Origin: Euglena gracilis
Lineage: Eukaryota
Assembly: GCA_039621445.1 (NCBI GenBank)
Contig: CP154954.1
Span: 11,898,716 to 11,962,715 of the forward strand
Reading direction: 5' to 3'
Length of the DNA stretch: 64,000 nucleotides
Shown here: piece after piece, positions 24,715-57,063 of the stretch
Position numbering within the stretch: position 1 is the stretch's first letter
Layout: each line of letters opens with the position of its first letter
The notes under the pieces: generated by a model
The model's database searches: none
What the model saw: the letters and a program-made list of their open reading frames with translations, nothing else
Told to the model about the DNA's origin: nothing
Translations under genes and position numbers: made by a program

Positions 24715-25562
24715 TGTCGGCCGCCGGCTTTCGCCGGCAGCCAAAAATTGCCAGAAAGCGCAAATTTCAAAGTCGCGGGTAACAGCCAACCAGTTAAAAA
24801 AACCCGCGACTTAAATTGGAAGCGGGTCAAATTTCAAAGACCTTTCAAATTCTTTTTGTTCACAGAACTTGAGGGGTTTTCCCCATCATTTGGCAAAGAA
24901 GAAATACATTGAATTGGATTTGATCAATCACATTATTGAATTGGAATTGACAATTACATTGTTGCTCATTACATTGTTGGTTGTATTCATTGGAGGATTG
25001 GTTTGAAGGAGCCTACAACACCGCCATCTTCACCGCCCTTCCACACACCCCTTCGCCTCACCTTCCTGGCCCCCGGGTTTGCACGTTTTCACACATTCAC
25101 ATTTCACATTCGTTTTCAATTCTTCACATTCAGCTGCTTTCAGTTTCTCAGTTTCAGAGTTTCAGAATTCAAGTTACTTTCAGTTTCTCACTCTCAAAGT
25201 TCCAAGTTCAGTGGGTTAGTTTTTCCTTCAAGGTGTGCGAGAGAGTGGGTGAGAGAGAAAGAGAGAAAGTGAGATTTCATTGCAAATGGCAGATTTTTCG
25301 GTGTTCACCAAATTTTCAGAAAGCATTAAAAAAACGAGCCTACGCACCGGCTGGGGTAGGGGAAAACACCTGGGTGAAAAAAAGGGAGTTGGCCTGAGCC
25401 CACCAACCCCCAGAAAAAGCGCAGGCCCCGCCCCGGAAACACCCACCCCCCGGCTGTCGGTGGTTTTCCACGACGGCGAGGACCCCCCCGGGCCCTCGGC
25501 CCACCGGCACTCGCCGGTCGCGGGGGCGACCGGCGGCGCACCGGGGGTGGGGCCGCCAAACA
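24715..25562 (+). repeat. Element A 5' LTR
   Basis: direct repeat of 35894-36741, about 12 differences counted by eye. Confidence 0.97.
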
Positions 25563-28500
25563 TGGTTAGCAGAGGTCGGCTCACTGACTTCGTCAGTGAG
25601 GTTTTTTCAGATTCGGTGAACGTTGTTGCAGAGATTTGTTCCGCTGCCTCTGCCAGCAGAATCAGTGCAAAGTTTTCAGATTCGGCTGACATCACAAGCA
25701 AAGGTTGTTTCACTGACTCAGTCAGTGAAAATTTTTCAGAGACGGTCGACACGGTCACAGAGATTTGTTCTGGTGGCTGTGCCAGCAGAATGGTACACGA
25801 GGACAGTTTCATCAACCCTGTGGTCTGTGAAATTTCAGAAGGATCTGCAGAAATCTGCTCGTTTCCAGGCCAATCTGTCCGAATTTCAGATTGTGATGAA
25901 AATTTTCTGAGATCTTTGGCAGAAAGCTGTTTTCAGAACGGACAGGAAACTGAATTTTCTGCAGCCCAGTTTTCAGAACCTGTGGCATCATTGCAAATCA
26001 TGATGGAATCTGTGGCAGAAAACAATTTTCAAGCTGCAGAAAGTTTATCGGCTTCAGGATTTTCAGAATCGACACAGGAATCAGAATCTGATTCTGATTC
26101 GGAGAGTGGGTTAATTACATGCATAAGGCCCATCACAGTGGCAGGGCCAGAAAAATTACAGCTGATTCCACTGCATGGCAGTGACGACGAATCAGACCCC
26201 CCAGCTTATGAAAGCGAAACAGAGGAAGAAAAACAGGCTGAAAACGCAATTATTCAGCAAATAGTTATTCAAAGAATGAAAGCTGCTGGCATGTGGCCAG
26301 TAAATTTTCCAGGTTTTCAGCAAATTTATGTGTCGTCACAAGACAGCAGCCCAGGGCCAGAACAAAAAATTTTGTGTTTTACAGCCCAGCCAGAACCATT
26401 GCTGTTAACACAGAGTTCAGAAACGCAGTCAGCACAGCCAGCTGCAGCCCAGCTGCAGGTTTTTCAGCCAGCCCAGCAGTTTTCGGCTGGGTCATCTGTT
26501 CCAGCAATCATGGGACCAGCCCAGATGCATGGGCAGGTTTTTCAGCCAGCGTTAACAGTGTCTTCAAACACAGGCCCAGCCCAGATTTTTCAGCCAATTC
26601 AGCCAGATTTTCCACAGACCCAGCCACAAAATTTACAGCCAAATACCAGTTTTTCTGCAGAAACTGGGTCCGAAAACCCTGAAAATCAGCATGCTGTGGA
26701 AATGGAATCGGGCTATGGCCAATCTGATGATGATTGGAACAATTGGGGTGAAGAAATCAGTTGCAAAATTGAATGTTTACATGGCAGACGTTTGGTGCAG
26801 GAATGAAAAAATTCTGAAAAAACGGCTGAAAATCTGGTGTGGGAGGCAGAAAACAGGCTAAATCGGGCATTGGCCATGTCACAGGGGCAGACATTGAATC
26901 TGGTGAATGAGGCATTGGGCTTGCATGATGGGCGAATGGCTGAGCACATTGCCATGGTGAAATGTGAAATTCAGGCTGAACTGAGTGCAACTGTAAACGA
27001 CTTGCTTTTGCAGTTTCAGCAAAATGGTGAAATGGTGCAAAATCTGGCCCAATGCCAAAGGCATTTGTTGAGTGTGGAAACGGAACGGCAGTTTGCTGAA
27101 AAAGTGAAGAAAGTGGAGGATGGAGTTAACTCGTTTTTTGAGGCCCAGGTTGAGAGGTTGAGAAAAAATGAGAGGGATTTTTCTCAGAAGCTGTCGTTTT
27201 TGGAAAAATCTGTGGGGGAGATGCACGTGGTGGTGAAACAAGTGGGGGAGAAGGAAAAACAGCAGGAAATTGCTGTTAATCAGGTCAAATCTGCAGTCGG
27301 TGAGCTAAGCTCTGGTCTGGAGGGACGCTTTGGGATCATTCTTCAGCAATGCAAAGGTTTGGGGGAGACTGAGTGTGCCAAATTTCAGCGCAGGCTGAGA
27401 AATTGAAGGAATTTTCACAGTCCCTGGAGCGAGAGAGCAAAGCTCTGAATGATCGTTTGGGGAGGTTGGAGAATTTTCTGGGTCGGAAAGATTTTCCCAT
27501 TGAGAAAGTCTGTGACCTGATTAACAAGAGTGAGGAAACAATTCGGTTGGAGGTGCAAAGGGAGTTGGTGCTGCAAACGAGAAAGAATTTGGAGGTCATT
27601 ATCAGTGAAATGTTGCAGGAAAGGTGGAGGCTGAGTGAAAGGGAGGAGCAGTTTGAAAAAGTTCGGGCTGAAATGGAAAATTCGATGAAACAGCAGGTTG
27701 GAGTTTTACTGCAACAGCAGTCCAGTGAACTTTTTAAAGAACAGCAGGAGCGGAAAAAATTGCAACAAAAGCTGGATTTATTTCAGGCTGAGTTTTTGGT
27801 GATGAAAAATCAGCAAGCTGAATCTGCCAAATCTGCGACAGTGGATCTGACAAAGGAAACGAGAGAAAAATCAGCTGGAAACCCAGAAATCGAAGAGTTT
27901 GATCTTTTTGGTTACAACGATTTACCTGTGATCGAGAAAAATCCGGTTGAAATTGAAGGCTATGAATACGCTGAACCAGGATCACATGCGACACATGTCA
28001 GGCAGGTTTGTGCACGACCTGTGGGGGCAGTGCCTGCAGGTGCAGGGCTGGTTCCATCAAATGCAGTGGCAACGCATCAATTGATGAAAAACCTGGTGGC
28101 TCCAAATTTTTCTGGACAGCCAAAAGACTGGTCGTCCTTTGTGCGGGATTGGGATCAATGTTTCAGGACGTTTGGTTATTTTGCAAAATGGACATATGTC
28201 TGATTCACTCAAGCTTCAGCTTTTTGCAATGACGCTGGACGACACAAATCAAAAGGAATTGCAATTCCGACTGGAATTGAACGGAAAAACATCTTTCGAG
28301 GAGGAATTTGACAGGCTTGAAGGGAAATATGCTGGAACTCAATCCGAGTGTGCCAGAAAAAAATCGTATGATGTGAACCTCGTGAACCAAGCGAAAATTA
28401 CCGTACAGGAATGGCGAGATTTTGTCATAAATTTCAGAATAGCCTGGAGACAGGTGAAAAGCACCACTGACGATGAGGCAGAAAGACTGGTCAAGGGAAA

Positions 28501-29370
28501 ACTGCCAAATTTCATTTTGCATTGGGTCGCCGATGAGGAGGAAAGGAAATCAACGTGTGGACCGAAAGTCAAAATGTACCCTGGAGTGCCTGCAACCGAG
28601 GAAAACATTATTTGTGCTGTGGAACGTGTCACTGGGGAAAAGCCCTGCAAGGTTTCGAAAGTTTCACCGCTGGAGTTCGAAGTCTTTTTGCCCAACACTA
28701 CGATTTGCGACAAACTGAAAGAGGTCAGTGGGAAACCAATCACAGGCACGGATAAAAGGATCAAAATTGTGGAGGAACAGCCAAAAATGGGAGTTGAAGA
28801 AATTTTCCGTTTTGTTGAGCGAAAATTGTCTTCCAGAGATTCTCAAGACATGATACACAGTTCCAGGGAGCCAAATGCATTTGGAAACCGGAGGGCCAGG
28901 TCTGCGAAGGCAGATCGGGCCAAGGGGTCCAAGACACCCTCCCCAACACGGTCAGCCAAGGGGGGCGAAACGGTGGCAAAACCGTCCGTTGGAAAATCAG
29001 ATTCACAGGTGGCAGCTCCTGCGACCAATGCAAACGTGAACCCCCCCGTGCAAAATCCAGTGCCAGTTGTGCGATCACAGTCATTGACCCCCCCCCCAGC
29101 AATCTCAATTTGGCAATGGGGGGGGGATGGAGAAATGATTCCGGGTGGAATTCCAATGCCAATGCCAATTTTCAGGGAAATCAGTGGTGGCACTCAAATC
29201 AACAGAATTTTGATTCACAGTCTGGTGGTGGCAAAGGCAAAGGCAAAGGCAAAGGCAAAGGAAACAATTCTTGGGGGAAAGGAAACAATGGAAATGACTG
29301 GTCTAGAGGAAAGGGCCAGGATGGTGGAAAAGGCAAAGGAAAAGGAAGGGGGAAAGGAAACCGATGCTAG
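25286..29370 (+). pseudogene. gag: Element A gag: acidic/low-complexity N-terminus, coiled coil, capsid-like region, GKG-rich tail (1 stop, several frameshifts)
   Basis: ORFs 25280-26806, 26837-27406, 27373-28203, 28139.., 29110-29370; PNFSGQPKDWSSFVRDW capsid-like start; collinear with B. Confidence 0.85.
25563..25575 (+). promoter_or_regulatory. Element A primer-binding site TGGTTAGCAGAGG (tRNAi-Met-like)
   Basis: directly after the LTR CA; one extra base relative to the TGGTAGCAGAGG initiator-tRNA complement. Confidence 0.8.
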
Positions 29371-29640
29371 GACAGCCGGGGTGGACCGTTGGGGGCGGGA
29401 GCCTCCCCGGGCTCGCATACCCAGCCCCACACAAAGACATACACAAATCCCAGGTGGCAAGAAAAATCTCGTGTGAGTGAAAACACGATGAAAAATCTGC
29501 CATCCCAGGAGACTTCTGTGCAAGGTGTGTCCAATGTGTCGGGTGCGTGCGTGCGTGACGTGCAAATCTGTGACTCGGCCCAAATCTGTAAAGAATCAGA
29601 TCCCATAAGGGATCGTGCACAGCCTTCCGTAAAGAAAAGA

Positions 29641-30225
29641 GCTTTAGACCTTTTTTGCGGTAAAGGCTCGGTTGGGGATTGCCTGAGAGAGCAAGGGTTT
29701 AAGGTTGTGTCAGTGGACATAAACCCCAGATTTAACCCAACCCACTGTGCAAATATTTTGGAGTGGAGATATTGGAGGTACCCCCCCGGATATTTTCAGA
29801 TCATCGCTGCGGGGTTGCCCTGTACAGAATATAGCTTGGCCAAAACATTGGGAGTCAGAAATTTGGAGGGGGCAGATCGGCTGGTCAAAAAAACTTTGGA
29901 GATTGTCGAATATTTCAAGCCAAAATTGTGGTGGATTGAAAATCCCCGTCATGGACTTTTGCGGAAAAGACCCTGTGTTCAAAATCTGACTTTTGTCGAT
30001 GTTGATTATTGTCAATTTTCAGATTGGGGATATCAAAAACCCACCCGAATCTGGGGGAGCGAAAATCTGAGCAAGCTACAAAACAAACTTTGTGATGGCC
30101 AGACCTGCCCGAATTTGATTCCTGGGGGGAGGAGTCACCGAGAAAAGTTGGGAGGATATGGAATGACAGTTGGCACCCAGAAAAGATGGAGGATGCCCAA
30201 ACAACTGGTGGAGTATTTTTTAACC
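29641..30225 (+). CDS. Element A C5-cytosine DNA methyltransferase domain
   Basis: ALDLFCGKG (I), VDIN (II), AGLPCTEYS (IV, PC at 29818-29823), WIENP (VI), YCQFSDWGYQKPTRIW; open frame. Confidence 0.9.
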
Positions 30226-30249
30226 GTGTTGGAACGAAAAAGCGGATAT

Positions 30250-30645
30250 CGTAGGGAGGATTATGCTGTTAGGAAAGTTTGTATGGAGGAAATTGAGAAG
30301 GAATTTCGGGTTAAGGCGGAACGGGATTGTTTTGCAACCAGCCAAAATGCCACGTGTGAAAAGTTTTATGGGGAGGATGATGATGCCATGAAAAAGGATT
30401 GGGGGGTGGAGGAAACGTTGTGGATGAACCCCCCCTGGACTTTGTGGCCTGAGGTGGCTGAAAAATTGCAAAATTCCAATTGTCGGGCAATTTGCATTTG
30501 CCCAGACTGGAATAGGAGGTGGGTGAAAAATCTGGTGGCTATGGCTGTCAAAAAGATTTATTTTTCCAAGGGGACAAAGTTGTTTGAGGCCGATGGGAGG
30601 ATTTTGAGGGGTACCCGTTGGGGGGTGTGGGCCTTGTTGATTGAT
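30250..30645 (+). CDS. Element A DIRS/Dam-like N6-adenine MTase domain fused in frame to the C5-MTase
   Basis: RDCFATSQNA..KFY...DAMKKDW....LWMNPPW (NPPW 30427-30438) ..RAICICPDW. Confidence 0.82.
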
Positions 30646-30759
30646 AGAAGGCAAACCACACAGGGGGGGGGGGGGCAGCCCCAGGGAAGAAAAAATTGGT
30701 GCGGCTGAAAAAAAGAATGTTGAGGGGGACAAAAACTCGGGGAGGAGCAAAGAAACTCG

Positions 30760-33700
30760 GGGAGGACAGACAACTGCTGTTAAAAAACCCAGATTAAGTT
30801 GGCAAATGGGGAGGAGAAAACAGCCAGAATTTTGATTGACACGGGGGCTGAGGCAAACCTCATTCGACAAGGGTTGATAGGGGACCACCTAATGTATCCT
30901 GCTAAGGACCCGTTAAGGTTTGAAACTGCCAATGGGCAAACTTTGGCGGGGGGGAGCAGATGTGCTAAGGTGAAAATGATCCTTCAACAAAATTGGAATG
31001 AGGAAAGGGAAATTGAGTGTGTGGAATATGATGTTGAATTTTATGAGGCAAACATCAAAGTTGATGCCATACTTTCTTATCCATGGTTGGCGGAGGCAAA
31101 ACTGGGAATTTTTCCACACCACAAGGCGTTGGTGAAAGACAGCCCCGACCTGGATTTTTTGCGGGGTGTTGAAAGATGGAGGGGTCCACAAAAATTCAGG
31201 ATGACACAAATTTTTCAGTGGACAGTGTGACTGCGGTGGAGGGGTCTTCGTGTGGGTTGCAAAAACGTGGTCTTTGTTTGCCTTTGGAAGGGTTGGACCA
31301 GGAATTGCAATTTTTGAGTGACGAGGACCTAGGGGAAGTTGCCACAAATTTGGAGGGAAGTGACCCCCCAGTGCAAGTTATCAACCGAATGATAATTGCA
31401 AGGGAGGGGGAGGACAAAAAAGAGGAGGAACGGGTAGTCAAGTTGAGGGAACAAGTTTTGGAAGATTACCGGGGGACGGTATTTCAGTCATCGCCATTTC
31501 CAGACCCCCCCCGAAAGAGGACAATATGGTTATGCATACATACCGTTGAAGGAGAGGGCAAAGCCAACCAGACAGAAGCCTTTTATCATGCACGGTGAGC
31601 GGAAAGAGGCACTTGAAAAAATCACCCAAGACTGGCTCGACAAAAAATACATCGAGCCAGCCACAGCCAAAAATTCTGAATGGCTGTCCCAGACTTTTCC
31701 AGTTCCAAAAAAATCCAACGATTTTCCTTGGAGGGGGGTGGTGGACCTCAGGGGCCCAAACAGCCAAACAAGGCGATGCAACTACCCCCTACCCAAAATT
31801 GAAGACATTTTGGTCAAACATGGTGCAAACCAAATGTTTTCGATCATCGATTTGAAGCAAGCTTTTCACCAACAACCTTTACACCCAGAAAGTCGACCCA
31901 TAACGTGTTGTTTCACCCCCAAAGGCATTTTTCAGTGGAGGGTGAATGTAATGGGTTTGACAAATGCCCCCCAGCAATTTCAGCAAATGATCGATGACCG
32001 TTTGACACCAGTAAGGGATATCGCCACAGGGTATATAGACGACATACTGGTGGGGACAACGGTCGGGGAAGGGGAGGACCTGGTGGGGGCACACGAAAAA
32101 GATTTGAGGAGGGTGTTGGAGGTGCTCAAAACGGAACTTTTGGTGGCTGATGAATTCAAAGCCAAACTTTTTGTGGAGGAGGTTGAATTTTGTGGACAAA
32201 TTTTAGGAAACGGGACTAGGAGGCCAGCACCGGGTAAGCTACGAGCGATCGAAAAGTGGGAGGTTCCAAAAACAATTACGGCTTTGAGAGCCTTTTTGGG
32301 ATTCACAAATTATTACAATGCATACATTCACATGTATGCGGAAGTAGCTGCCCGATTGCAAGACAAATTGAAAGTCCCCAGGGAGGTGGGAAAGAAAGGA
32401 AGTCGAAAACCTGTGGAATTTGATGGGGAGGATTTAAAAGCTTTTGAGGAGCTGAAAAAAAGGTTGTGTTCGGGCCTGATGTTGCAACGGGTAGACCCAG
32501 ATAAACCCTTTGTGCTAAGGGTTGATGCTAGTGGGTACGCCGTGGGGGCAACGTTAGAGCAAATGAAGGAGGGGGGAGGAAGACCCACAGCCCAGGATGT
32601 GATTGAGAAAAAAACTGTGCCAGTGGCTTTTATGTCTCGAAAATTGACCGAGGGGCAAAGAAAATGGACACCCAGTGAGTTGGAGACGTATGCCATAATT
32701 TTGGCACTACAAAAATGGGAGAGTTGGATTGGATTGCAACCCGTTTTGGTTTTAACCGACCACCAAAGTTTGCAGTCTTGGACAAGGGAATTCCTAGACA
32801 CCCCCAGTGGTCCGGTTGGGAGGAGGGCGAGATGGCATCAAATTTTCTCCAAGTATGATTTGACGGTGGGATATATCCCGGGTAAAGAAAATACCAAAGC
32901 CGATATCCTTAGTCGGTGGGCTTACCCAGCTTCACAGGCCCTAAGGGACATAAGTAAGCACGGGTCAGCCGAAGACAAGGATGAATTGGAAAATTTTGTC
33001 CAGGAGGAAAAAGAAGAGGAAAAACAGTGTTTGGAGATAAGAATCAAAAACCATCCCAATTTACGTAATGCCTGGATACAGGGGGTGACCACCCGTAGTG
33101 ACAAAAACGTAACACCTGAGGAGGAAAAAGGAGAGTGCACAAGGAGGGGAACCGAGGGTGGGGTAGACCCAGGAGGAAAAGACACCCCTGTGGACACCCA
33201 CTCACAAGGGCCCAGGAAAGAAAAGAAACGAGTTCATTTTTGGGATGAGAAAGTGGGGGGGGGAGACGACCCCTGTCCCGGAGACGGCTGAAAGTTCGAG
33301 GGGGGACACTCGTATGGAAGTGGGGGACGCCCTGCCAAGTACGACCCCTAAGGATATTAAGCCCGTATGGGAGCGTGATTGGGGGAAACATACTCCCAAT
33401 GCCCCGCATGGAAAGAAAAATGGGTAGCTACCAAAGGCGATTCAATGTGGCCAAAGGGCTTCAAAGTGCTAAATGGCCAATTGTTTTTCGAGGAAAAGTT
33501 GTGTGTGCCTGAAAGTTTTCAACATTTGGTGATTCAAGAAATTCACGAGTTTTTGGGGCACGTTGGCCCTGAAAAAGTTTGGAAACACATGGCAATCCGT
33601 TTTGTTTGGGCTGATGAAAAGGCTGCAAAACAACTCAACCAAAATTGCAGCAAAAATTGTTCCACATGCCAAGCGAGTGTGAGGGGGGAGAGTTTGAAAG

Positions 33701-34845
33701 GACCGATCGAGTCCACACCCATACCCCCTGCACTAATGACAAGTGTTGCCATCGATTTGTTTCGAATGCCAAGGGTTTTACACGATGGGGGGGAGTATGA
33801 CACCCTAGCCCTTTGTGTGGATAGGCATTCAGGTTGGATTGTGGGGGTTGCATGCAAGGACAAGGGATTAACCGGTGCCAAGTTGGCTAAGGAAATGGTG
33901 AAAAATCAGTGGAGGCCTTTTGGGGTTCCCTCGGTCATCTCAAGTGACCAAGGGAGCCATTTCACAAGCACTTGGTGGAAAAACATGTGTGCACTTTTGG
34001 GGATTAGGCAAGCGTATTCCCAAGCGTACCACCATCAAGCAAACGGGAGGGTTGAGAGAGCCGGACAACAGGTAATGGAGGTGTTGAGGAAATTGTACGT
34101 GGAGGAAAAAATTAATTGGGTTGAGGCTTTACCCCAAGTTTTGGACCGAATTCATGACGTAAAGGGGGAAAGCGGATTGAGCCCATATGAAATTGTGACT
34201 GGAAGGGAAAGACCATTGGCAGGGGTACCCTACCAACCACCCAAAGAATGTGAGGATTCGGTGGAATTTTTCCGAAGGATGCAAGACCTTGATGGGAGGG
34301 TGGCTAGGATACTCAACAAAAAGCATGAGGAGGAGGTGGCAAGGATAAATAAGGGGAGGAAAGAAATGGAACCCCTAAAGGTGGGGACGACGGTTTGGTA
34401 TAGGAGACCCGAGGGGTCGGGTGAGAAGCTTGACTCTAGGTGGGTGGGACCTGGGGTCGTGAAGGGTAGAGAGGGGGAACGGAGTTATGTAATTGAGATG
34501 AAATCTGGGGTGGAGACAAAAGCTCATAGGAGTTTGTTGAAGGAGTATCGGGAACCCCAAGTGGAAGGTAAGGGGGTGCCTCTTTTTTACCATAAGCGGA
34601 CCGAAAAAGAAGAAGAGGCATTACCTGATGAGTGGGAGGTGGAAAAAATTCTAAGGCACCGGAAAGGAAAGGATGGAAAGTGGGAGTTTTTAACAAAGTG
34701 GGTCGGATATGAGGACGGGGAGGAAACCTGGGAACCGGCTGGCAATTTAATTCACAGATTCAGTGGGGAGTTTGTGAAGTATTGCCGTGAGAAAAAAGTG
34801 AAAATGGACGTAATGTCCGAACTTAAAATTGACGGTGGGCCGTAG
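30760..34845 (+). pseudogene. pol: Element A pol: PR-RT-RNaseH-IN-chromodomain (frameshifts, several in homopolymer runs)
   Basis: ILIDTGA (DTG 30838-30846); YIDD 32032-32043; VDAS/ELE/TDH; HHCC, IDLF..SDQG..RVER; CHD WEVEKIL..KWVGY..TWEP 34630-34790. Confidence 0.95.
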
Positions 34846-35284
34846 GCTCTAAGGTGAGCCATAAGGCCCTGTCCAAGGCTCTACGGTGAGCCTAATGGGA
34901 AGGCAAAGTGCTGTTTTTAAAATTCAAAAACCCGATTTGCACGTCCGTGCGGGTGTGAGTGCACGCACACACGCATGAGCGTGTAAAGGAGAGAATGTAC
35001 AAATGCAAGAATTGGCAAGGAGAATGGAAATTGGAGAAAAAGGCCCCGCAAGGGGGCCGTGGCACCTCAGTATATTCGCCGCCGCATTGCTGTTGTACTC
35101 GCCCCACTGCGCTTATATTTGCCCCACCGCACTTATATTTGTACTTGTACTCGCCCCACTGCGCCTATATTTGCCGTCCTCTCCTCTTCTCTCCCGGTGT
35201 TGTAGGTTTGGAGATCGATTCTTTGAGATGATGGGTTACATTGTGGTTGGGAGTCCATGGTCACATAATGAGCCCCCCTTCGGT

Positions 35285-35580
35285 TTGACAAAAATCCCCC
35301 CCCGGCCCGAGGAGGGGGGGGGCGCTTGATTTTTTGACAAAAACCCCCCCGGCCCGAGGAGGGGGGGGGGGCGCTAGAATTTTTAAAAATCCCCCCGGCC
35401 CGAGGAGGGGGGGGGGCGCTTGATTTTTTGACAAAAATCCCCCCGGGCCGAGAAGGTGGGGGGCGCTTGATTTTTTGACAAAAATCCCCCCGGCCCGAGG
35501 AGGGGGGGGGGGCTTGACGAATTTGAACCAAAAAACCCCCCGACCCGAGAAGGGGGGGGGGGCGCCAACCGAATTTTAAA
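35285..35580 (+). repeat. ~45-bp tandem repeat in the 3' UTR of A (TTGACAAAAATCCCCCCGGCCCGAGGAGGGGGGGGGCGC)
   Basis: about 6-7 units; about 3 units in B at 45860-46000. Confidence 0.9.
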
Positions 35581-35882
35581 ACAAGAATCCCCCAGCCCGT
35601 TGAAACAGGGGGGGGGCAGATTTTGGTGAAGACCCTCATTCCACCCGTGAGAAGCGGGGGGGGGGTGGCAGCCAAATATCCATTGGTTGGTGAACCGAAT
35701 CTTTCCCAAAGGTTTGAAGGCACTTGAAAGCCATAGTCCCTGAATTTTGTTTCCCGTTTGGTTGGTTCAAGGGAGCATGTGTGGGACATAGGCTTTGGGT
35801 GAAGGAGTGCCGATTGGAGGATTTCCACCCGTTGTGGAGGAACGGGGGGGGGGGCGAATTTTTGGTGTCCCACTAAGGTCGC

Positions 35883-35893
35883 AAGGGAGGGGG
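35883..35893 (+). promoter_or_regulatory. Element A polypurine tract
   Basis: AAGGGAGGGGG directly before the 3' LTR TG. Confidence 0.9.
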
Positions 35894-36741
35894 TGTCGGC
35901 CGCCGGCTTTCGCCGGCAGCCAAAAATTGCCAGAAAGCGCAAATTTCAAAGTCGCGGGTAACAGCCAACCAGTTAAAAAAACCCGCGACTTAAATTGGAA
36001 GCGGGTCAAATTTCAAAGACCTTTCAAATTCTTTTTGTTCACAGAACTTGAGGGGTTTTCCCCATCATTTGGCAAAGAAGAAATACATTGAATTGGATTT
36101 GATCAATCACATTATTGAATTGGAATTCACAATTACATTGTTGATCATTACATTGTTGGTTGTATTCATTGGAGGATTGGTTTGAATGAGCCTACAACAC
36201 CGCCATCTTCACCGCCCTTCCCCACACCCCTTCGCCTCACCTTCCTTTGCCCCAGGTTTGCACGTTTTCACACATTCACATTTCACATTCGTTTTCAATT
36301 CTTCACATTCAGCTGCTTTCAGTTTCTCAGTTTCAGAGTTTCAGAATTCAAGTTACTTTCAGTTTCTCACTCTCAAAGTTCCAAGTTCAGTGGGTTGGTT
36401 TTTCCTTCAAGGTGTGCCAGAGAGTGGGTGAGAGAGAAAGAGAGAAAGTGAGATTTCATTGCAAATGGCAGATTTTTCGGTGTTCACCAAATTTTCAGAA
36501 AGCATTAAAAAAACGATCCTACGCACCGGCTGGGGTAGGGGAAAACACCTGGGTGAAAAAAAGGGAGTTGGCCTGAGCCCACCAACCCCCAGAAAAAGCG
36601 CAGGCCCCGCCCCGGAAACACCCACCCCCCGGCTGTCGGTGGTTTTCCACGACGGCGAGGACCCCCCCGGGCCCTCGGCCCACCGGGACTCGCCGGTCGC
36701 GGGGGCGACCGGCGGCGCACCGGGGGTGGGGCCGCCAAACA
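35894..36741 (+). repeat. Element A 3' LTR
   Basis: 848-bp direct repeat, followed by TSD CAGT. Confidence 0.97.
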
Positions 36742-40100: not shown

Positions 40101-40330
40101 TTCTCTTTCGCCTGAACAGCGAAAGAATTTTCGGTGTATGGGCTGTGCACCTTCTTTGAGTTCGATTTTACAGACACCAAAAGGTCCGCGAATGGCAGGA
40201 TCTATGTCATGGGCATAGATAGGATGTTCCAAAACATCACTGAATTCGCGATTAATCTTTGTACATAGTTCTTGTGATTTGGGATGTTGACCACCGCTTT
40301 CTATCACTGCGGATAGTTGGTATATTTGGT
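37111..40330 (-). pseudogene. pol: Element C pol: RT-RNaseH-IN-chromodomain
   Basis: LDYRYLNSQT, FDLEDGFHQ, LPMGVKN, YIDD (39665-39676), [59 protein letters not shown]. Confidence 0.93.
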
Positions 40331-40439
40331 CACTCTGACCTTTATCCCGTAGGAATTTGTCAGTGTGGTCAACAGTTCCGAATGCATCAAAGAAACAAAC
40401 ACGAAAAATGATTTCTTTCAATGGTGGTAACATGACACC

Positions 40440-44743: not shown

Positions 44744-45541
44744 TGTTCGCCGGCCCCACCCCCTGTGCGCCGCCGGTCGGCCCCGCGACCGGCGAGTCCC
44801 GGTGGGCCGAGGGCCCGGGGGGGTCCTCGCCGTCGTGGATAACCACCGACAGCAGGGGGGTGGGTGTTTCCGGGGCGGGGCCTGCGCTTTCTCGGGGAAT
44901 TGGTGGGCTCAGGCCAACTCCCATTTTTTCACCCAGGTGTTTCCCCCTACCCCAGCCGGTGCGTAGGATCGTTTTTTTAATGTTTTCTGAAAATTTGGTG
45001 AACACCGAAAAATCTGCCATTTGGTGTGAAAATCTCACTTCTCTCTCTCTCTCTCACGCACACCTTGCAGGCAAAAACCAACCCACTGATCTGAAATGAA
45101 TCCCAACCCACTGGAGAAGCAAACACACTGTTGGAAATCTGTGAGAGTGACTGAATGTGATGGAAAAAACAACCTGGGGCAAGGAAGAGGGGTATAGGGT
45201 ATGTAGGCGGCGGTGAGGGTGGCGGTGTTGTAGGGTCTCCTTGATTTCAATACCAACTTGAATTCAATAACTCCACCAACAATGTAATGACCAACAAAGT
45301 AACTGTCAAATCGAATTCAACAATGTGATTGATCAAATCCAATTCAATGTATTTCCTCTTTGCCAAATAATGGGGAAAACCCCTCAAGTTCTGTGAACAA
45401 AAAGAATTTGAAAGGTCTTTGAAATTTGACCCGCTTCCAATTTAAGTCGCGGGTTTTTTTAACTGATTGGCTGTTACCCGCGACTTTGAAATTTGCGCTT
45501 TCTGGCAATTTTTGGCTGCCGGCGAAAGCCGGCGGCCGACA
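44744..45541 (-). repeat. Element B 3' LTR
   Basis: direct repeat of 56266-57063, about 4 differences counted by eye. Confidence 0.97.
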
Positions 45542-46435
45542 CCCCCTCCCTTGCGACCTTAGTCGGACACCAAAAATTCGCCCCCCCCCTTCCTCAACAA
45601 AGAGGGGGGAACTTCTCCAATCGGCACTCCTTCACCCAAAGCCTATGTCCCACTCCCTCTCTTGAACCAACCAAACGGGAAACAAAAATGAGGGACTATG
45701 GCTTTCAAGTGCCTTCAATCCTTTGAGAAAGACTCAAATCACCAACCAATGAATATTTGGCTGCCCCCCCCACCGCTTCTCACGGGTGGTATGAGGGTCT
45801 TCACCAAGATCTGCCCCCCCCCCTTCCAACGGGTCGGGGGATTTTTGGTAAAAATTCGGTTGGCGCCCCCCCCCCTCCTCGGGCCGGGGGGATTTTTGTC
45901 ATAAAATCGAGCGCCCCCCCCCCTCCTCGGGCCGGGGGGATTTTTGTCAAAAAATCGAGCGCCCCCCCCCTCCTCGGGCCGGTGGGATTTTTGTCAAACC
46001 GAAGGGGGGGCTTAATATGTGACCATGGACTCCCAACCACAATGGAATCCCTCATCTCAAAGAATCAATCTCCAAACCCTAACAACACCGGGAGAGAAGA
46101 GGAGAGGACGGCAAATATAGGCGCAGTGGGGCGAGTACAAGTACAAATATAAGTGCGGTGGGGCAAATATAAACGCAGTGGGGCGAGTACAACAGCAATG
46201 CGGCGGCGAATATGCTGAGGTGGCCAAAGGCCCCCTTGCGGGGCCTTTTTCTCCAAATTCCATTCTCCTTGCCAATTCTTGCATTTGTACATTCTCTCCT
46301 TTACACGCTCATGCGTGTGTGCGTGCACTCACACCCACACGGACGTGCAAATCGGGTTTTTGAATTTTAAAAACAGCACTTTGCCTTCCCATTACCGTAG
46401 AGCCTTGGACAGGGCCTTATGGCTCACCTTAGAGC

Positions 46436-49400
46436 CTACGGCCAACCATCAATTTTTAGTTCGGACATTATGTCCATTTTCACTTTTTTCTCACGGCAAT
46501 ACTTCACAAACTCCCCACTGAATCTGTGAATGAAATTTCCAGCCGGTTCCCAGGTCTCCTCCCCGTCCTCATATCCGACCCACTTGGTCAAAAATTCCCA
46601 CCTTCCATCTTTTCCTTTTCGGTGCCTTAGAATTTTTTCCACCTCCCACTCATCAGGTAATGCCTCTTCTTCTTTTTCGGTCCGTTTATAGTAAAAAAGA
46701 GGCACCCCCTTACCTTCCACTTGGGGTTCCCGATATTCCTTCAAAAAACTCTTATGAGCTTTTGTCTCTACCCCAGGTTTCATCTCAATTACATAACTCC
46801 GTTCCCCTTCTCTACCCTTCACGACCCCAGGTCCCACCCACCTAGAGTCAAGCTTCTCACCCGACCCCTCGGGTCTCCTATACCAAACCGTCGTCCCCAC
46901 CTTTAGGGGTTCCATTTCTTTCCTCCCCTTATTTATCCTTGCCACCTCCTCCTCGTGCTTTTTGTTGAGTATCCTAGCCACCCTCCCATCAATGTCTTGC
47001 ATCCTATGGAAAAACTCCACCGAATCCTCACATTCCTTGGGTGGTTGGTAGGGTACCCCTGCTAATGGTCTTTCCCTTCCGGTCACAATTTCATATGGGC
47101 TCAATCCGCGTTCCCCCTTTACGTCATGAATTCGGTCCAAAACTTGGGGTAAAGCCTCAACCCAATTAATTTTTTCCTCCACGTACAATTTTCTCAACAC
47201 CTCCATTACCTGTTGTCCGGCTCTCTCAACCCTCCCGTTTGCTTGGTGGTGGTATGCTTGGGAATATGCTTGCCTAATCCCCAAAAGAGCACACATGTTT
47301 TTCCACCAAGTGCTTGTAAAATGGCTCCCTTGGTCACTTGAGATGACCGAGGGAACCCCAAAAGGCCTCCACTGATTTTTCACCATTTCCTTAGCCAACT
47401 TGGCACCGGTTAGTCCTTTGTCCTTGCATGCAACCCCCACAATCCATCCCGAATGCCTATCCACACACAAGGCTAGGGTGTCATACTCCCCCCCATCGTG
47501 TAAAACCCTTGGCATTCGAAACAAATCGATGGCAACACTTGTCATTAGTGCTGGGGGTATGGGTGTGGACTCGATCGGTCCTTTCAAACTCTCCCCCCTC
47601 ACACTCGCTTGGCACGTGGAACAATTTTTGCTGCAATTTTGGTTGAGTTGCTTTGCAGCCTTTTCATCAGCCCAAACAAAACGGATTGCCATGTGTTTCC
47701 AAACTTTTTCAGGGCCAACGTGCCCCAAAAACTCGTGAATTTCTTGAATCACCAAATGTTGAAAACTTTCAGGCACACACAACTTTTCTTCGAAAAACAA
47801 TTGGCCATTTAGCACTTTGAAGCCCTTTGGCCAAATTGAATCGCCTTTGGTAGCTACCCATTTTTCTTTCCATGTGGGGCATTGGGAATATGCTTCCCCC
47901 CAATCACGCTCCCATACGGGCTTAATATCCTTAGGGGTCGTACTTGGCAGGGCGTCCCCCACTTCCATACGAGTGTCCCCCCTCGAACTTTCAGCCGTCT
48001 CCGGGACAGGGGTCGTCTCCCCCCCCACTTTCTCATCCCAAAAATGAACTCGTTTCTTTTCTTTCCTGGGCCCTTGTGAGTGGGTGTCCACAGGGGTGTC
48101 TTTTCCTCCTGGGTCTACCCCACCCTCGGTTCCCCTCCTTGTGCACTCTCCTTTTTCCTCCTCGGGTGTTACGTTTTTGCCACTACGGGTTGTCACCCCC
48201 CGTATCCAGGCATTACGTAAATTGGGCTGGTTTTTGATTCTTATCTCCAAACACTGTTTTTCCTCTTCTTTTTCCTCCCGGATAAAATTTTCCATTTCAT
48301 CCTTGTCTTCGGCTGACCCGTGCTTACTTATGTCCCTTAGGGCCTGTGAAGCTGGGTATGCCCACCGACTAAGGATATCGGCTATGGTATTTTCTTTACC
48401 CGGGATATATCCCACCGTCAAATCATACTTGGAGAAAATTTGATGCCATCTCGCCCTCCTCCCAACCGGACCACTGGGGGTGTCTAGGACCTCCCTTGTC
48501 CAAGACTCCAAACTTTGGTGGTCGGTTAAAACCAAAACGGGTTGCAATCCAATCCAACTTTCCCATTTTTGTAGTGCCAAAATTATGGCATACGTCTCCA
48601 ACTCCCTGGGGGTCCATTTTCTTTGCCCCTCGGTCAATTTTCGAGACATAAAAGCCACTGGCACAGTTTTTTTCTCAATCACATCCTGGGCTGTGGGTCT
48701 TCCTCCCCCCTCCTTCATTTGCTCTAACGTTTCCCCCACGGCGTACCCACTAGCATCAACCCTTAGCACAAAGGGTTTATCTGGGTCTACCCGTTGCAAC
48801 ATTAGGCCCGAACACAACCTTTTTTTCAGCTCCTCAAAAGCTTTTAAATCCTCCCCATCAAATTCCACAGGTTTTCGACTTCCTTTTTTTCCCACCTCCC
48901 TGGGGACTTTCAATTTGTCTTGCAGCCGGGCAGCTACTTCCGCATACATGTGAATGTATGCATTGTAATAATTTGTGAATCCCAAAAAGGCTCTCAAAGC
49001 CGTAATTGTTTTTGGAACCTCCCACTTTTCGATCGCTCGTAACTTACCCGGTGCAGGCCTCCTAGTCCCATTTCCTAAAATCTGTCCACAAAATTCGACC
49101 TCCTCCACAAAAAGTTTGGCTTTGAATTCATCAGCCACCAAAAGTTCTGTTTTCAGCACCTCCAACACCCTTCTCAAATCTTTTTCGTGTGCCCCCACCA
49201 GGTCCTCCCCTTCCCCGACCGTTGTCCCCACCAGTATGTCATCTATGTACCCTGTGGCGATATCCCTTACTGGTGTCAAACGGTCATCGATCATTTGCTG
49301 AAATTGTTGGGGGGCATTTGTCAAACCCATTACGTTCACCCTCCACTGAAAAATGCCTTTGGGGGTGAAACAACATGTTATGGGTCGACTTTCTGGGTGT

Positions 49401-51910
49401 AGAGGTTGTTGGTGAAAAGCTTGCTTCAAATCGATGATCGAAAAAATTTGGTTTGCACCATGTTTGACCAAAATGTCTTCAATTTTGGGTAGGGGGTAGT
49501 TGCATCGCCTTGTTTGGCTGTTTGGCCCCCTGAGGTCCACCACCCCCCTCCAAGGAAAATCGTTGGATTTTTTTGGAACTGGAAAAGTCTGGGACAGCCA
49601 TTCAGAATTTTTGGCTGTGGCTGGCTCAATGTATTTTTTGTCGAGCCAGTCTTGTGTGATTTTTTCAAGTGCCTCTTTCCTCTCACCGTGCATGAAAAAA
49701 GGCTTCTGTCAGGTTGGCTTTGCCCCCTCCTTCAGCGGTATGTATGCATAACCATATTGTCCTCTTTCGGGGGGGTCTGGAAAAGGCGATGACCGAAATA
49801 CCGTCCCCCTGTAATCTTCCAAAACTTGTTCCCTCAACTTGACTACCTGTTCCTCCTCTTTTTTGTCCTCCCCCTCCCTTGCAATTATCATTCGGTTGAC
49901 AACTTGCACTGGGGGGTCACTTCCCTCCAAATTTGTGGCAACCTCCCTCAGGTCCTCATCACTCAAAAATTGCAATTCCTGGTCCAACCCTTCCAATGGC
50001 AAGCAAAGACCAAGTTTTTGCAACCCAAACGAAGACCCGTCTGCCACAGTCACATTGTCCACTGAAAATGTTGTGTCATCCCTGAATTTTTGCGGACCCC
50101 TCCGTCTTTCAACACCCCGCAAAAAATCCAGGTCGGGGCTGTCTTTCACCAATGCCTTGTGGTGTGGAAAAATTCCCAGTTTTGCCTCCGCCAACCATGG
50201 ATAAGAAAGAATGGCATCAACTTTGATGTTTGCCTCATAAAATTCAACCTCATATTCCACACACTCAATTTCCCTTTCCTCATTCCAATTTTGTTGTAGG
50301 ATCATTTTCACCTTTGCACATCTGCTCCCCACCGCCAAAGTTTGCCCATTGGCCGTTTCAAACCTTAACGGGTCCTTAGCAGGATACATTAGGTGGTCCC
50401 CTATCAACCCTTGTCGAATGAGGTTTGCCTCCGCTCCCGTGTCAATCAAAATTCTGGCCGTTTTTTCCTCCCCATTTGCCAACTGAATCTGGGTTTTTAA
50501 CAGAAGTTGTCTGTCCTCCCCGAGTTTCTTTGCTCCTCCACGAGTTTTCGTCCCCCTCAACATTCTTTTTTTCAGCCGCACCAATTTTTTCTTCCCTGGG
50601 GCTGCCCCCCCCTGGGAGGGTAGCCTTCTATCGATCAACAAGGCCCACACCCCCCAACGGGTCCCCCTCAAAATCCTCCCATCAGCCTCAAACAACTTTG
50701 TCCCCTTGGGAAAATAAATCTTTTTGACAGCCATAGCCACCAGATTTTTCACCCGCCTCCTATTCCAGTCTGGGCAAATGCAAATCGCCCGACAATTGGA
50801 ATTTTGCAATTTTTCAGCCACCTCAGGCCACAAAGTCCAGGGGGGGCTCATCCACAACATTTCCTCCGCCCCCCAATCCTTTTTCATGGCATCATCATCC
50901 TCCCCGTAAAACTTTTCACACCTGGCATTTTGGCTGGTTGCAAAACAATCCCGTTCCGCCTTAACCCGAAATTCCTTCTCAATTTCCTCCATACAAACTT
51001 TCCGAACAGCATAATCCTCCCTACGATATCCGCTTTTTCGTTCCAACACGGTTAACAAATACTCCACCAGTTGTTTGGGCATCCTCCATTTTTTCTGAGT
51101 GCCAACTGTCATTCCATATCCTCCCAACTTTTCTCGGTGACTCCTCCCCCCAGGAATCAAATTCGGGCAGGTCTGGCCATCACAAAGTTTGTTTTGTAGC
51201 TTGCTCAGATTTTCACTCCCCCAGATTCGGGTGGGCTTTTGATATCCCCAATCTGAAAACTGACAATAGTCAACATCGACAAAAGTCAGATTTTGAACAC
51301 AGGGTCTTTTCCGCAAAAGTCCATGACGGGGATTTTCAAACCACCACAACTTTGGTTTGAAATATTCCACAATCTCCAAAGTTTTTTTGACCAGCCGATC
51401 TGCCCCCTCCAAATTTCTGACTCCCAATGTTTTGGCCAAGCTATATTCTGTACAGGGCACCCCCGCAGCGATGATCTGAAAATATCCGGGGGGGTACCTC
51501 CAATATCTCCACTCCAAAATATTTGCACAGTGGGTTGGGTTAAATCTGGGGTTTATGTCCACTGACACAACCTTAAACCCCTGCTCTCTCAGGCAATCCC
51601 CAACCGAGCCTTTACCGCAAAAAAGGTCTAAAGCTCTTTTCTTTACGGAAGGCTGTGCACGATCCCTTATGGGATCTGATTTTTTACAGATTTGGGCCGA
51701 GTCACAGATTTGCACGTCACGCATGCACGCACCCGACACACTGGACACACCTTGTGTATAGCTCTCCTGGGATGGCAGATTTTTCATCGTGCTTTCGATT
51801 TCACTCGCACGAGATTTTTCTTGCCACCTGGGATTTGTGTATGTCTTTGTGTGGGGCTGGGTATGCGAGCCCGGGGCGGCTCCCGCCCCCAACGGTCCAC
51901 CCCGGCTATC
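46436..51910 (-). CDS. pol: Element B pol: C5-MTase - N6-MTase-like - PR - RT - RH - IN - CHD in one frame with a single premature TGA (49709-49711; AGA in A)
   Basis: ORFs 49709-51892 (727 aa) and 46436-49693 (1085 aa) share a frame; LFCG, GVPC, ENP, SPPW, DTG, YIDD, DDE and chromodomain motifs. Confidence 0.95.
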
Positions 51911-56542: not shown

Positions 56543-57063
56543 TTGGTGTGAAAATCTCACTTCTCTCTCTCTCTCTCACGCACACCTTGTAGGCAAAAAC
56601 CAACCCACTGATCTGAAATGAATCCCAACCCACTGGAGAAGCAAACACACTGTTGGAAATCTGTGAGAGTGACTGAATGTGATGGAAAAAACAACCTGGG
56701 GCAAGGAAGAGGGGTATAGGGTATGTAGGCGGCGGTGAGGGTGGCGGTGTTGTAGGGTCTCCTTGATTTCAATACCAACTTGAATTCAATAACTCCACCA
56801 ACAATGTAATGACCAACAATGTAACTGTCAAATCCAATTCAACAATGTGATTGATCAAATCCAATTCAATGTATTTCCTCTTTGCCAAATAATGGGGAAA
56901 ACCCCTCAAGTTCTGTGAACAAAAAGAATTTGAAAGGTCTTTGAAATTTGACCCGCTTCCAATTTAAGTCGCGGGTTTTTTTAACTGATTGGCTGTTACC
57001 CGCGACTTTGAAATTTGCGCTTTCTGGCAATTTTTGGCTGCCGGCGAAAGCCGGCGGCCGACA
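56266..57063 (-). repeat. Element B 5' LTR
   Basis: followed on the minus strand by PBS TGGTTAGCAGAGG. Confidence 0.97.

What the first reader, a model, noticed from the sequence alone, without database searches (positions are those of the whole stretch)
29371..34845. Chromodomain Gypsy retrotransposon whose Pol carries two fused DNA methyltransferases (C5-cytosine + N6-adenine-type)
Seen: in A and B the pol frame starts with a compact C5-MTase (FCG, PC, ENP motifs) fused directly to an amino-MTase-like domain (DCFA..NPPW), then PR-RT-RH-IN-chromodomain. In B all domains lie in one frame. Known: C5-MTases occur in retrotransposons of dinoflagellates and charophyte algae, and Dam-like N6-MTase domains occur in DIRS elements. 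I do not recall both together in one Gypsy polyprotein. Inference: the protease releases a double MTase packaged in the particle, which could mark new cDNA or the insertion site with 5mC and 6mA (or 4mC). With a chromodomain retaining its aromatic cage (W..W..Y), this would be a self-contained epigenetic writer/reader system.
Basis: partly seen in the sequence, partly recalled or inferred. Interest (0 to 1): 0.92.

Follow-up and report, generated by a model that had tools for sequence, protein, structure and literature searches.

The report
Euglena retrotransposon carrying two methyltransferases
This is a real jumping gene of the Ty3/Gypsy type whose replication protein begins with a cytosine and an adenine methyltransferase domain and ends in a chromodomain, but this design was already described in Euglena gracilis in a May 2026 preprint under the name "EpiLTR".

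Summary
The window holds two young full-length LTR retrotransposons of one family: A at 24715-36741 (+) and B at 44744-57063 (-). Both have TG..CA LTRs that are 98.6% and 99.5% identical, and both have 4-bp target-site duplications. In each, pol reads compact C5-DNMT, then a Dam-like domain (PF05869), then PR-RT-RH-IN-chromodomain. Both methyltransferase domains model with high confidence (pLDDT about 90) as SAM-dependent Rossmann enzymes. The first matches DNMT3B and M.HhaI at Z 14. The second matches PCIF1 (Z 11) and T4 and E. coli Dam (Z 9). A-versus-B dN/dS is 0.12 for the DNMT and 0.31 for the DAM.

Both copies are now defective. A has six frameshifting indels. B has one in-frame TGA and reads SPPW where A reads NPPW. 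A Euglena gracilis transcript is 97% identical to B and intact at those sites.

The novelty claim fails. bioRxiv 10.64898/2026.05.21.726589 already describes E. gracilis LTR elements combining DAM, DNMT and chromodomain, and names them EpiLTRs. The proposed mechanism (self-marking of cDNA) remains untested.

Small additions from this work:
- The window also holds a degenerate element with the reversed order DAM>DNMT, and a DAM-only element.
- Environmental relatives show both domain orders.
- The nearest solved fold of the DAM domain is an RNA cap adenosine methyltransferase.

The parts
24715..36741 (+). Element A, a full-length LTR retrotransposon (12,027 bp) flanked by the 4-bp target-site duplication CAGT
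   Evidence: Self-BLAST. Termini and flanks.
24715..25562 (+). A 5' LTR (848 bp, TG..CA). The first ATG of the long upstream ORF (25287) lies inside it.
35894..36741 (+). A 3' LTR, 98.6% identical to the 5' LTR. It is preceded by a purine-rich tract, ..AAGGGAGGGGG.
25287..29370 (+). A gag-like region, in several frames in this copy, with no Pfam family. It has a G/K-rich tail and ends at a TAG (29368-29370) directly in front of the pol frame.
29641..30270 (+). A compact C5-cytosine DNA methyltransferase domain (ORF aa 91-300) with motifs FCGKG, PC, ENP and TRIWG
   Evidence: Pfam. Fold Z 14.3 to DNMT3B and 14.0 to M.HhaI. Foldseek E about 3e-7. Motif positions.
30271..30645 (+). A Dam-like (PF05869, DIRS-type) amino-methyltransferase domain with DCFA and NPPW (30427-30438)
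   Evidence: Pfam. Model. Fold matches PCIF1 Z 11.3, T4 Dam Z 9.2 and EcoDam Z 9.1.
30784..31230 (+). A aspartic protease (DTGA), in a different frame from the MTases in this copy
31447..33291 (+). A reverse transcriptase (YIDD) and RNase H
33379..34845 (+). A integrase (H2C2 zinc domain and rve core) with a C-terminal chromodomain (about 34633-34761)
   Evidence: Chromodomain alignment to CDYL2.
44744..57063 (-). Element B, a full-length copy of the same family (12,320 bp) with target-site duplication ACCC. Its LTRs, 44744-45541 and 56266-57063, are 99.5% identical.
46436..51910 (-). B pol in one frame: DNMT-DAM-PR-RT-RH-IN-chromo. It has one in-frame TGA at 49709-49711, and SPPW (codon 50846-50848) in place of NPPW.
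54576..55499 (-). Tandem 78-nt (26-aa) repeat inside B's gag-like ORF. B has 546 nt (7 units) more than A.

Best explanation
The finding is copy A of a young, high-copy Ty3/Gypsy chromovirus of (very probably) Euglena gracilis. A second copy, B, lies 8 kb away on the other strand. Both belong to the kind recently named EpiLTR.

Pol follows a TAG that closes the gag-like region. After an unconserved leader of about 90 aa it reads: a roughly 210-aa C5-cytosine DNA methyltransferase with a very short target-recognition insert; a roughly 130-aa DIRS-type Dam-like amino-methyltransferase; then protease, RT, RNase H and a DDE integrase ending in a chromodomain.

Shown here:
- The LTR-element anatomy.
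- The domain order.
- Both MTase domains fold as class-I SAM methyltransferases with catalytic motifs kept.
- The lineage evolved under purifying selection on both domains.
- Both window copies are now dead through private mutations, while forms with B's reading frame dominate contigs of RNA-labelled runs.

Inferred, not shown: the MTase pair is made as part of Gag-Pol, so it would sit where the element's cDNA is made. It would put 5mC on CG sites and 6mA on the new copy or its reverse-transcription intermediate. This would let a new insertion match a host genome in which CG methylation is the default state and 6mA marks active promoters, as the preprint states. The integrase chromodomain would steer insertion towards methyl-lysine-marked chromatin.

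The confidence given (0.85) is for what the element is. For the inferred self-marking mechanism I would give about 0.35.
For: Anatomy:
- LTR pairs 98.6% and 99.5% identical, with A and B interiors 96.4% identical over 9 kb.
- TG..CA ends, target-site duplications CAGT and ACCC, a TGG-starting sequence after the 5' LTR and a purine tract before the 3' LTR.

Domains:
- Pfam hits.
- Two-domain model at pLDDT 90.6.
- DNMT part: Foldseek top hits M.HhaI, DNMT1 and DNMT3A/B at E 3-5e-7; VIA DNMT3B Z 14.3 (199 aligned, rmsd 4.2) and M.HhaI Z 14.0 (194 aligned).
- DAM-alone model at pLDDT 89.2: Foldseek PCIF1 E 4e-5; VIA PCIF1 Z 11.3 (126 aligned), T4 Dam 9.2, EcoDam 9.1.

Motif conservation in the 67-row alignment:
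- PC in 64 of the 64 rows that cover it.
- ENP in 63 of 65 (2 have ETP).
- NPP plus W, F or C in 19 of 22 rows that cover at least half of the DAM domain. The exceptions are window B (SPPW), P0012 and P0133.

Selection, A against B: dN/dS is 0.12 for DNMT (9 synonymous, 4 non-synonymous differences), 0.31 for DAM (7 and 9), 0.02 for RT, 0.06 for IN and 0.17 for all of pol.

Host and expression:
- eukprot EG_transcript_113 (P0135) is 97% identical to B from the DAM domain to the end. It reads NPPW, and its two alignments to B's two ORFs leave exactly one of its residues at the place of B's TGA, so it reads through there.
- In three runs labelled RNA or 'RNA?', every contig covering most of A's frameshift sites shows the B-type state. 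At 30782 this holds in all three runs but in only part of X15's depth. At 33380 it holds in only part of X20's depth. At 30663 it holds in X15 and X20 only.
- 14,617 pieces of one DNA run lay on the stretch.

Literature: the same architecture in E. gracilis is described, with the host's methylome, in bioRxiv 10.64898/2026.05.21.726589.

CpG decay: 39 of 173 A/B mismatches are CpG<->TpG/CpA changes, at 191 CpG dinucleotides in 5,483 aligned columns. CpG observed/expected is 0.55-0.59 in the elements. This fits methylated CpGs but does not say which enzyme methylates them.
Against: - No activity is shown for either domain.
- The window's DNMT scores 21.8 bits against PF00145's cut-off of 22, and only the N-terminal third of the profile is matched.
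- The preprint found no rise in 6mA when eukaryotic DAMs were expressed in DAM-deficient E. coli.
- The best solved match of the DAM fold is an RNA cap adenosine methyltransferase, not a DNA enzyme.
- Both window copies are defective, so neither can itself act as an autonomous element.
- dN/dS rests on two copies and small counts, and part of the A/B divergence arose after insertion.
- The RNA labels of runs X15 and X18 are guesses, and contigs cannot prove transcription.
- The host name rests on one eukprot label. No genome was held for the window.
- The preprint's supplements, which may list the Euglena families and their domain order, could not be read.
Confidence: 0.85

Rival explanations
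1. The Dam-like domain does not write 6mA on double-stranded DNA. It instead methylates adenine in RNA or in the RNA:DNA hybrid of reverse transcription, for example on the element's own transcript. The DNMT would then be the only true DNA writer.
For: The nearest solved fold is the cap-specific adenosine N6-methyltransferase PCIF1 (Foldseek E 4e-5, the six best rows; VIA Z 11.3 against 9.2 for T4 Dam and 9.1 for EcoDam; Z 10.9 against 8.9 in the two-domain model). rRNA adenine methyltransferases (ErmE, DIMT1, KsgA) score like the DNA Dams. Eukaryotic DAMs gave no 6mA in E. coli, and the authors themselves raise a hybrid substrate.
Against: The sequence family is PF05869, whose named members are phage and bacterial DNA adenine methyltransferases. 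The Z gap of about 2 is modest. A shared fold does not fix the substrate. The preprint reports more 6mA on DAM-LTR copies than on other LTR elements, including in E. gracilis.
Confidence: 0.2
2. One or both methyltransferase domains are catalytically dead. They are kept for another role, such as nucleic-acid or chromatin binding or recruiting the host's AMT1 or DNMTs.
For: Negative E. coli assay for DAMs in the preprint, which also suggests recruitment of host AMT1. The DNMT has a very short insert where other C5 enzymes have a target-recognition domain, and it matches only positions 3-118 of 324 in PF00145.
Against: The residues that matter for catalysis are the most conserved ones: FxGxG, PC and ENP, and NPP plus an aromatic residue. 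dN/dS is 0.12 and 0.31. Dead enzyme domains usually lose these motifs first; that is general knowledge, not tested here.
Confidence: 0.12
3. The apparent fusion is an artefact of nested insertions or assembly, and MTase-bearing DNA merely lies inside an ordinary Gypsy element.
For: The preprint warns that E. gracilis shows chimeric or nested elements and possible assembly artefacts. The window is packed with retroelements.
Against: Two copies with separate target-site duplications have the same order. In B, the MTases, PR, RT, RH, IN and chromodomain share one frame over 1,824 codons with a single stop. A transcript-derived protein joins DAM to PR-RT-IN-chromo. Long proteins from other sources (P0123, P0124, P0125) have DNMT-DAM-RT-IN in one ORF.
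Confidence: 0.02

Closest known systems
Euglena gracilis 'EpiLTR' (DAM-LTR subset with DNMT and chromodomain), bioRxiv 10.64898/2026.05.21.726589
   Same: Same host by the eukprot label. It is an LTR Ty3/Gypsy-like element encoding a Dam-like domain, a C5-DNMT and a chromodomain in one element.
   Different: Nothing that I can show. The text I could read gives neither the domain order nor coordinates, and the supplements were closed. Whether this exact family is in their set is therefore inferred.
Cymbomonas tetramitiformis EpiLTR (same preprint)
   Same: A chromovirus with DAM, DNMT and chromodomain. The preprint states that its DNMT is a sister of the Euglena one.
   Different: There the DNMT is appended to the 3' end of pol. 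Here both MTases are at the 5' end, before the protease.
KnitGypsy-Dnmt3 of Klebsormidium nitens (PMC5890265)
   Same: A Gypsy element with a C5-DNMT inside Pol, under purifying selection (Ka/Ks under 0.2 reported there).
   Different: Its DNMT is of the Dnmt3 family, and no Dam-like domain is described. The acquisition is independent according to the 2026 preprint.
DIRS retrotransposons with a Dam-like methyltransferase domain
   Same: The same PF05869-type domain. The preprint derives the LTR-borne DAMs from DIRS elements.
   Different: DIRS elements use a tyrosine recombinase. This element has a DDE integrase (rve) with an H2C2 zinc domain, 4-bp target duplications and plain direct LTRs.
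PCIF1/CAPAM cap-specific adenosine N6-methyltransferase (6irx, 6irw)
   Same: The nearest solved fold to the DAM domain (Z 11.3, 126 of 146 residues aligned).
   Different: 11-16% identity. PCIF1 is a cellular RNA enzyme of about 480-490 residues in the solved chains, with further domains. No sequence-level family link was tested.

Membership tests
Ty3/Gypsy LTR retrotransposon (chromovirus) | Direct LTRs ending TG..CA, with a short target-site duplication | tested here: met
   LTR pairs of 848 and 798 bp, with duplications CAGT (A) and ACCC (B).
Ty3/Gypsy LTR retrotransposon (chromovirus) | Pol order PR-RT-RNase H-IN, with a DDE integrase | tested here: met
   Pfam order in B's single frame: Asp protease 479-535, then RVT_1, RT_RNaseH, Integrase_H2C2 and rve.
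Ty3/Gypsy LTR retrotransposon (chromovirus) | Chromodomain at the C-terminus of the integrase | tested here: met
   PF00385 at E 9.5e-11 (A) and 1.3e-9 (B). W/W/Y stand at the positions aligned to Y/W/Y of CDYL2.
Ty3/Gypsy LTR retrotransposon (chromovirus) | Primer-binding site complementary to a host tRNA 3' end | tested here: inconclusive
   TGGTTAGCAGAGGTCGG follows the 5' LTR in both copies. No host tRNA set was available to match it.
EpiLTR (as defined in bioRxiv 10.64898/2026.05.21.726589) | An LTR element encoding a DAM domain, a C5-DNMT domain and a chromodomain together | tested here: met
EpiLTR (as defined in bioRxiv 10.64898/2026.05.21.726589) | DNMT falls in the clade sister to DNMT4, together with the Cymbomonas elements | not tested
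   No reference DNMT4 or Cymbomonas sequences were fetched. The statement is the preprint's.
C5-cytosine DNA methyltransferase (PF00145) | Pfam gathering score | tested here: inconclusive
   The window copies score 21.8 bits against 22. Relatives P0123, P0128, P0129, P0130 and P0144 score 23.2-26.7 and pass.
C5-cytosine DNA methyltransferase (PF00145) | Motif I FxGxG, motif IV Pro-Cys and motif VI ENV-like | tested here: met
   FCGKG, PC and ENP in A and B. PC is in 64 of 64 rows and ENP in 63 of 65. The motif names are recalled.
C5-cytosine DNA methyltransferase (PF00145) | Fold of the catalytic domain | tested here: met
   DNMT3B Z 14.3, DNMT3A 14.1 and M.HhaI 14.0 over model residues 9-218.
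C5-cytosine DNA methyltransferase (PF00145) | Methyl transfer to cytosine C5 in DNA | not testable with these tools
   Needs an enzyme assay.
Dam-like N6-adenine methyltransferase (PF05869) | Pfam gathering score | tested here: met
   40.7 bits (A) and 36.5 bits (B) against 28.1.
Dam-like N6-adenine methyltransferase (PF05869) | Catalytic (D/N)PP-aromatic motif | tested here: met
   NPPW in A. B has SPPW, so this is not met in B.
Dam-like N6-adenine methyltransferase (PF05869) | 6mA deposition on DNA | not testable with these tools
   The preprint's E. coli assay of other eukaryotic DAMs was negative.
DIRS retrotransposon | Tyrosine recombinase instead of a DDE integrase | tested here: not met
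   No Phage_integrase hit. rve and Integrase_H2C2 are present.

The most novel reading that the evidence does not exclude
The Dam-like module of these elements is an RNA- or hybrid-directed adenine methyltransferase of PCIF1-like fold that marks the element's own transcript or reverse-transcription intermediate. It is paired with a minimal C5-DNMT whose very short recognition insert is held by a conserved Cys-Cys-Cys-His cluster. The pair is a movable cassette that has been shuffled between the orders DNMT>DAM and DAM>DNMT within one genome. This would make it a two-substrate (RNA and DNA) epigenetic writer carried by a retrotransposon.
Probability: 0.12. Interest if true: 0.65.

Novelty: already known. 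Interest (0 to 1): 0.3.

Why it matters
A retrotransposon that carries writers for both 5mC and 6mA and a reader of histone methylation could set its own epigenetic state. That is of real interest for the conflict between transposons and their hosts. The finding is nevertheless an independent rediscovery, because the point was made for this host in a 2026 preprint.

What remains open is worth an experiment. Nobody has shown activity or substrate for either domain in the Euglena elements. The reversed-order sister family in the same window gives a natural comparison.

Tried and rejected
- Whole-genome search of the window's own assembly: no genome is held. A genome-wide copy census and a proper multi-copy dN/dS could therefore not be done, and I used the two window copies only.
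- Sequence search of the MTase ORF against solved structures: only weak hits, E 0.12 or more.
- Profile of alignment A1 against solved structures: dominated by the Ty3 polyprotein, integrases and chromodomains carried in by the long rows. It was uninformative for the MTases, apart from the chromodomain alignment.
I read the tblastn alignments instead.
- Gag: no Pfam family at E up to 0.01 for the long upstream ORFs. I could not settle the original gag frame or how pol is reached past the TAG, because A and B differ by four frameshifting indels between 27387 and 29087. I did not reconstruct a frame.
- Nested-insertion or assembly artefact as the source of the fusion: rejected (see the rival explanations).
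- DIRS membership: rejected, because there is no tyrosine recombinase.
- Depth from the laid runs was not used as copy number or expression level, since all four runs are contigs.
- X20 is a leaf-litter metatranscriptome that holds 0.44 of the sampled words. I draw no conclusion about habitat from it.

Full report
**What is there.** A self-comparison of the window shows two full-length LTR elements of one family.
- Element A: 24715-36741 on the + strand, with 848-bp LTRs that are 98.6% identical.
- Element B: 44744-57063 on the - strand, with 798-bp LTRs that are 99.5% identical.
- Their interiors are 96.4% identical over 9 kb.
- Both elements start TG and end CA.
- Each is flanked by its own 4-bp duplication, CAGT for A and ACCC for B.
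- Each has TGGTTAGCAGAGGTCGG after the 5' LTR and a purine tract before the 3' LTR.

These are therefore two separate and recent insertions, not an assembly duplicate.

**The finding's coordinates.** The span 29371-34845 is the four stop-to-stop frames of A's pol. Pfam finds, in order:
- DNA_methylase PF00145: aa 91-200, E 1.5e-4, 21.8 bits against a cut-off of 22.
- Dam PF05869: aa 305-357, E 2.5e-10, 40.7 bits against 28.1.
- A retroviral-type aspartic protease (weak).
- RVT_1, RT_RNaseH, Integrase_H2C2, rve and Chromo (E 9.5e-11).

B gives the same list in one frame. Three corrections are needed:
- A's pol is broken by six frameshifting indels relative to B.
- B has an in-frame TGA at 49709-49711, where A has AGA.
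- B's Dam motif is SPPW, not NPPW.

Both copies are therefore defective.

**Are the two N-terminal domains methyltransferases?** I aligned A's residues 75-440 with B and 65 homologs. The model has mean pLDDT 90.6.
- Foldseek against the PDB puts M.HhaI, DNMT1 and DNMT3A/B on top, at E 3-5e-7.
- The Foldseek-independent search gives DNMT3B Z 14.3 (199 residues aligned), DNMT3A 14.1 and M.HhaI 14.0 for model residues 9-218.
- For residues 217-356 the same search gives PCIF1 Z 10.9 and E. coli Dam Z 8.9.

Folded alone, the DAM domain has pLDDT 89.2.
- Foldseek matches PCIF1 at E 4e-5.
- VIA gives PCIF1 Z 11.3 with 126 of 146 residues aligned, T4 Dam Z 9.2, and ErmE and E. coli Dam Z 9.1.

The second domain's nearest solved relative is an RNA cap adenosine methyltransferase.

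**Conservation and selection.** The most conserved columns across the 67 rows are the catalytic ones:
- DLFxGxG.
- PC, in 64 of the 64 rows that cover it.
- ENP, in 63 of 65.
- NPP plus W, F or C, in 19 of the 22 rows covering at least half of the DAM domain.

Between A and B, dN/dS is 0.12 for the DNMT, 0.31 for the DAM, 0.08 for PR, 0.02 for RT, 0.06 for IN and 0.17 overall. The 90-residue leader before the DNMT gives 1.09. The counts are small (13 and 16 differences in the two MTase domains), and part of the divergence arose after insertion. This is support, not proof.

**Host and activity of the family.**
- The best named relative is eukprot EG_transcript_113 (P0135, 1,540 aa).
- It is 97% identical to B from the DAM domain to the chromodomain.
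- It reads NPPW, and it has a residue where B has TGA.
- No genome is held for the window, so the host call, Euglena gracilis or a very near relative, rests on that label.
- Twenty public runs hold the stretch or a part of it, 19 of them labelled with one coded organism.
- In one DNA run, 14,617 contig pieces lay on the stretch.
- In three runs labelled RNA or 'RNA?', A's private indels are mostly replaced by the B-type state. The exceptions are in the evidence field.
- Because these are contigs and two of the RNA labels are guesses, I take this only as evidence that frame-intact versions are common. It is not a measure of expression.

**Comparison with what is known.** De Mendoza et al. 2018 (PMC5890265; sections 6 and 9 read) describe DNMTs in Symbiodinium LINE and DIRS elements and in a Klebsormidium Gypsy element. 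They note Dam-like domains in DIRS elements.

A preprint of 22 May 2026 is bioRxiv 10.64898/2026.05.21.726589. I read its abstract, sections 9 and 10, and passages of sections 3, 5-8 and 11. It reports the following:
- Dam-like domains occur in non-DIRS LTR elements.
- These elements are named EpiLTRs, and their DNMT is placed as sister to DNMT4.
- E. gracilis has near-default CG methylation, with promoter 6mA on a subset of genes.
- Expressed eukaryotic DAMs did not raise 6mA in DAM-deficient E. coli.

My searches for the combination found only this paper. The architecture is thus already catalogued for this host.

**How it most likely works.** Shown: the anatomy, the folds, the motif conservation and the sign of purifying selection. 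Inferred:
- The MTase pair lies between the gag-like region and the protease, so it would be made as part of the Gag-Pol precursor and travel with the replication machinery.
- The DNMT would methylate the new copy's cytosines.
- The DAM would methylate adenines on DNA or on the reverse-transcription hybrid.
- The chromodomain would guide the integrase to methyl-lysine-marked chromatin.

CpG decay fits methylated CpGs in these elements but cannot say whose enzyme does it. CpG-transition differences are about four times more frequent per site than other differences between A and B (39 of 173 mismatches at 191 CpGs in 5,483 columns), and CpG observed/expected is 0.55-0.59.

Two rivals remain open: an RNA or hybrid substrate for the DAM, and non-catalytic roles. 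A nested-insertion artefact is all but excluded.

These points are small and unverified against its supplements.
- (i) The same window holds two further DAM-bearing elements. Element C (about 9669-15619, +) has the reversed order DAM>DNMT>PR-RT-RH-IN, is degenerate with stop codons, and has a DNMT 48% identical to B's. Element D (about 37123-40753, -) has a DAM-like stretch reading HPP, plus RT and IN, but no DNMT match.
- (ii) I examined 172 sequences: 170 fetched relatives plus the 2 window copies. Of these, 33 show DNMT>DAM, 21 show DAM>DNMT, 116 show a DNMT only, and 2 show a DAM only. Of the 116, 113 are too short by my criterion to judge.
- (iii) I built a DNMT-domain tree of the 50 rows that have both domains and near-full DNMT coverage. 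Four of the 54 were dropped for short coverage. The order is strongly clustered, with at least 2 changes forced by well-supported branches and 4 at minimum. The window's family lies in a 15-row DNMT>DAM clade with SH-aLRT 95. This was a quick search, without bootstraps or an outgroup.
- (iv) The DNMT's short insert carries nearly invariant Cys, Cys, Cys and His residues, which may bind zinc. This is untested.

**Verdict.** The architecture is already known. Interest is low to moderate.

Noticed in passing
window 9669-15619 (+): Element C is a third, degenerate chromovirus-like element with the methyltransferases in the reverse order. DAM (NPPF, three stops) lies at 9669-10022 and DNMT (48% identical to B's, one stop) at 10219-10800, followed by PR-RT-RH-IN. 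No LTR pair was found for it at the settings used.
   Followed up: partly
window 37123-40753 (-): Element D is a fourth retroelement, lying between A and B. It has a Dam-like stretch (HPP in place of NPP; Pfam Dam E 0.0012 on ORF 40418-41587), an RT and an integrase, but no match to the DNMT. Its CpG observed/expected is 1.01, unlike its neighbours.
   Followed up: partly
window 54576-55499 (-) and 26456-26550 (+): There is a 78-nt (26-aa) tandem repeat inside the gag-like ORF. It is listed as nine copies in B. B has 546 nt (7 units) more than A, so the repeat number varies between copies.
   Followed up: partly
window 25287 (A) and about 56540 (B): The long gag-like ORF (1,126 aa stop to stop in B) begins with an ATG inside the 5' LTR and runs across the LTR end and the putative primer-binding site. 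It matches no Pfam family and no zinc-knuckle family. Its end is G/K-rich.
   Followed up: partly
window 29368-29370 (A) and 51911-51913 (B): In both copies a TAG stands directly in front of the pol frame. In A the frame before it is open for 183 codons. This may mean that pol is reached by stop-codon readthrough, but the gag frames of the two copies disagree, so it is unsettled.
   Followed up: partly
DNMT domain, alignment A1 positions C140, C167, C172, H182 (A: within 29593-30690): Three cysteines and a histidine in and beside the short insert between the TRIWG motif and the C-terminal helix are at least 90% conserved across 67 relatives. They may form a zinc site replacing a normal target-recognition domain.
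   Followed up: no
P0016: One relative with DAM>DNMT order is filed under the carnivorous plant Genlisea aurea (M569_12700, partial). Given the other sources, it may come from a protist in the sample rather than from the plant.
   Followed up: no
window 61146-63998 (+), 56996-58686 (-): There are long coiled-coil-like ORFs with only weak Pfam hits (Apolipoprotein, E 9.5e-7, far under its cut-off). Proline-rich repeats lie at 58687-59469. Their nature was not examined.
   Followed up: no
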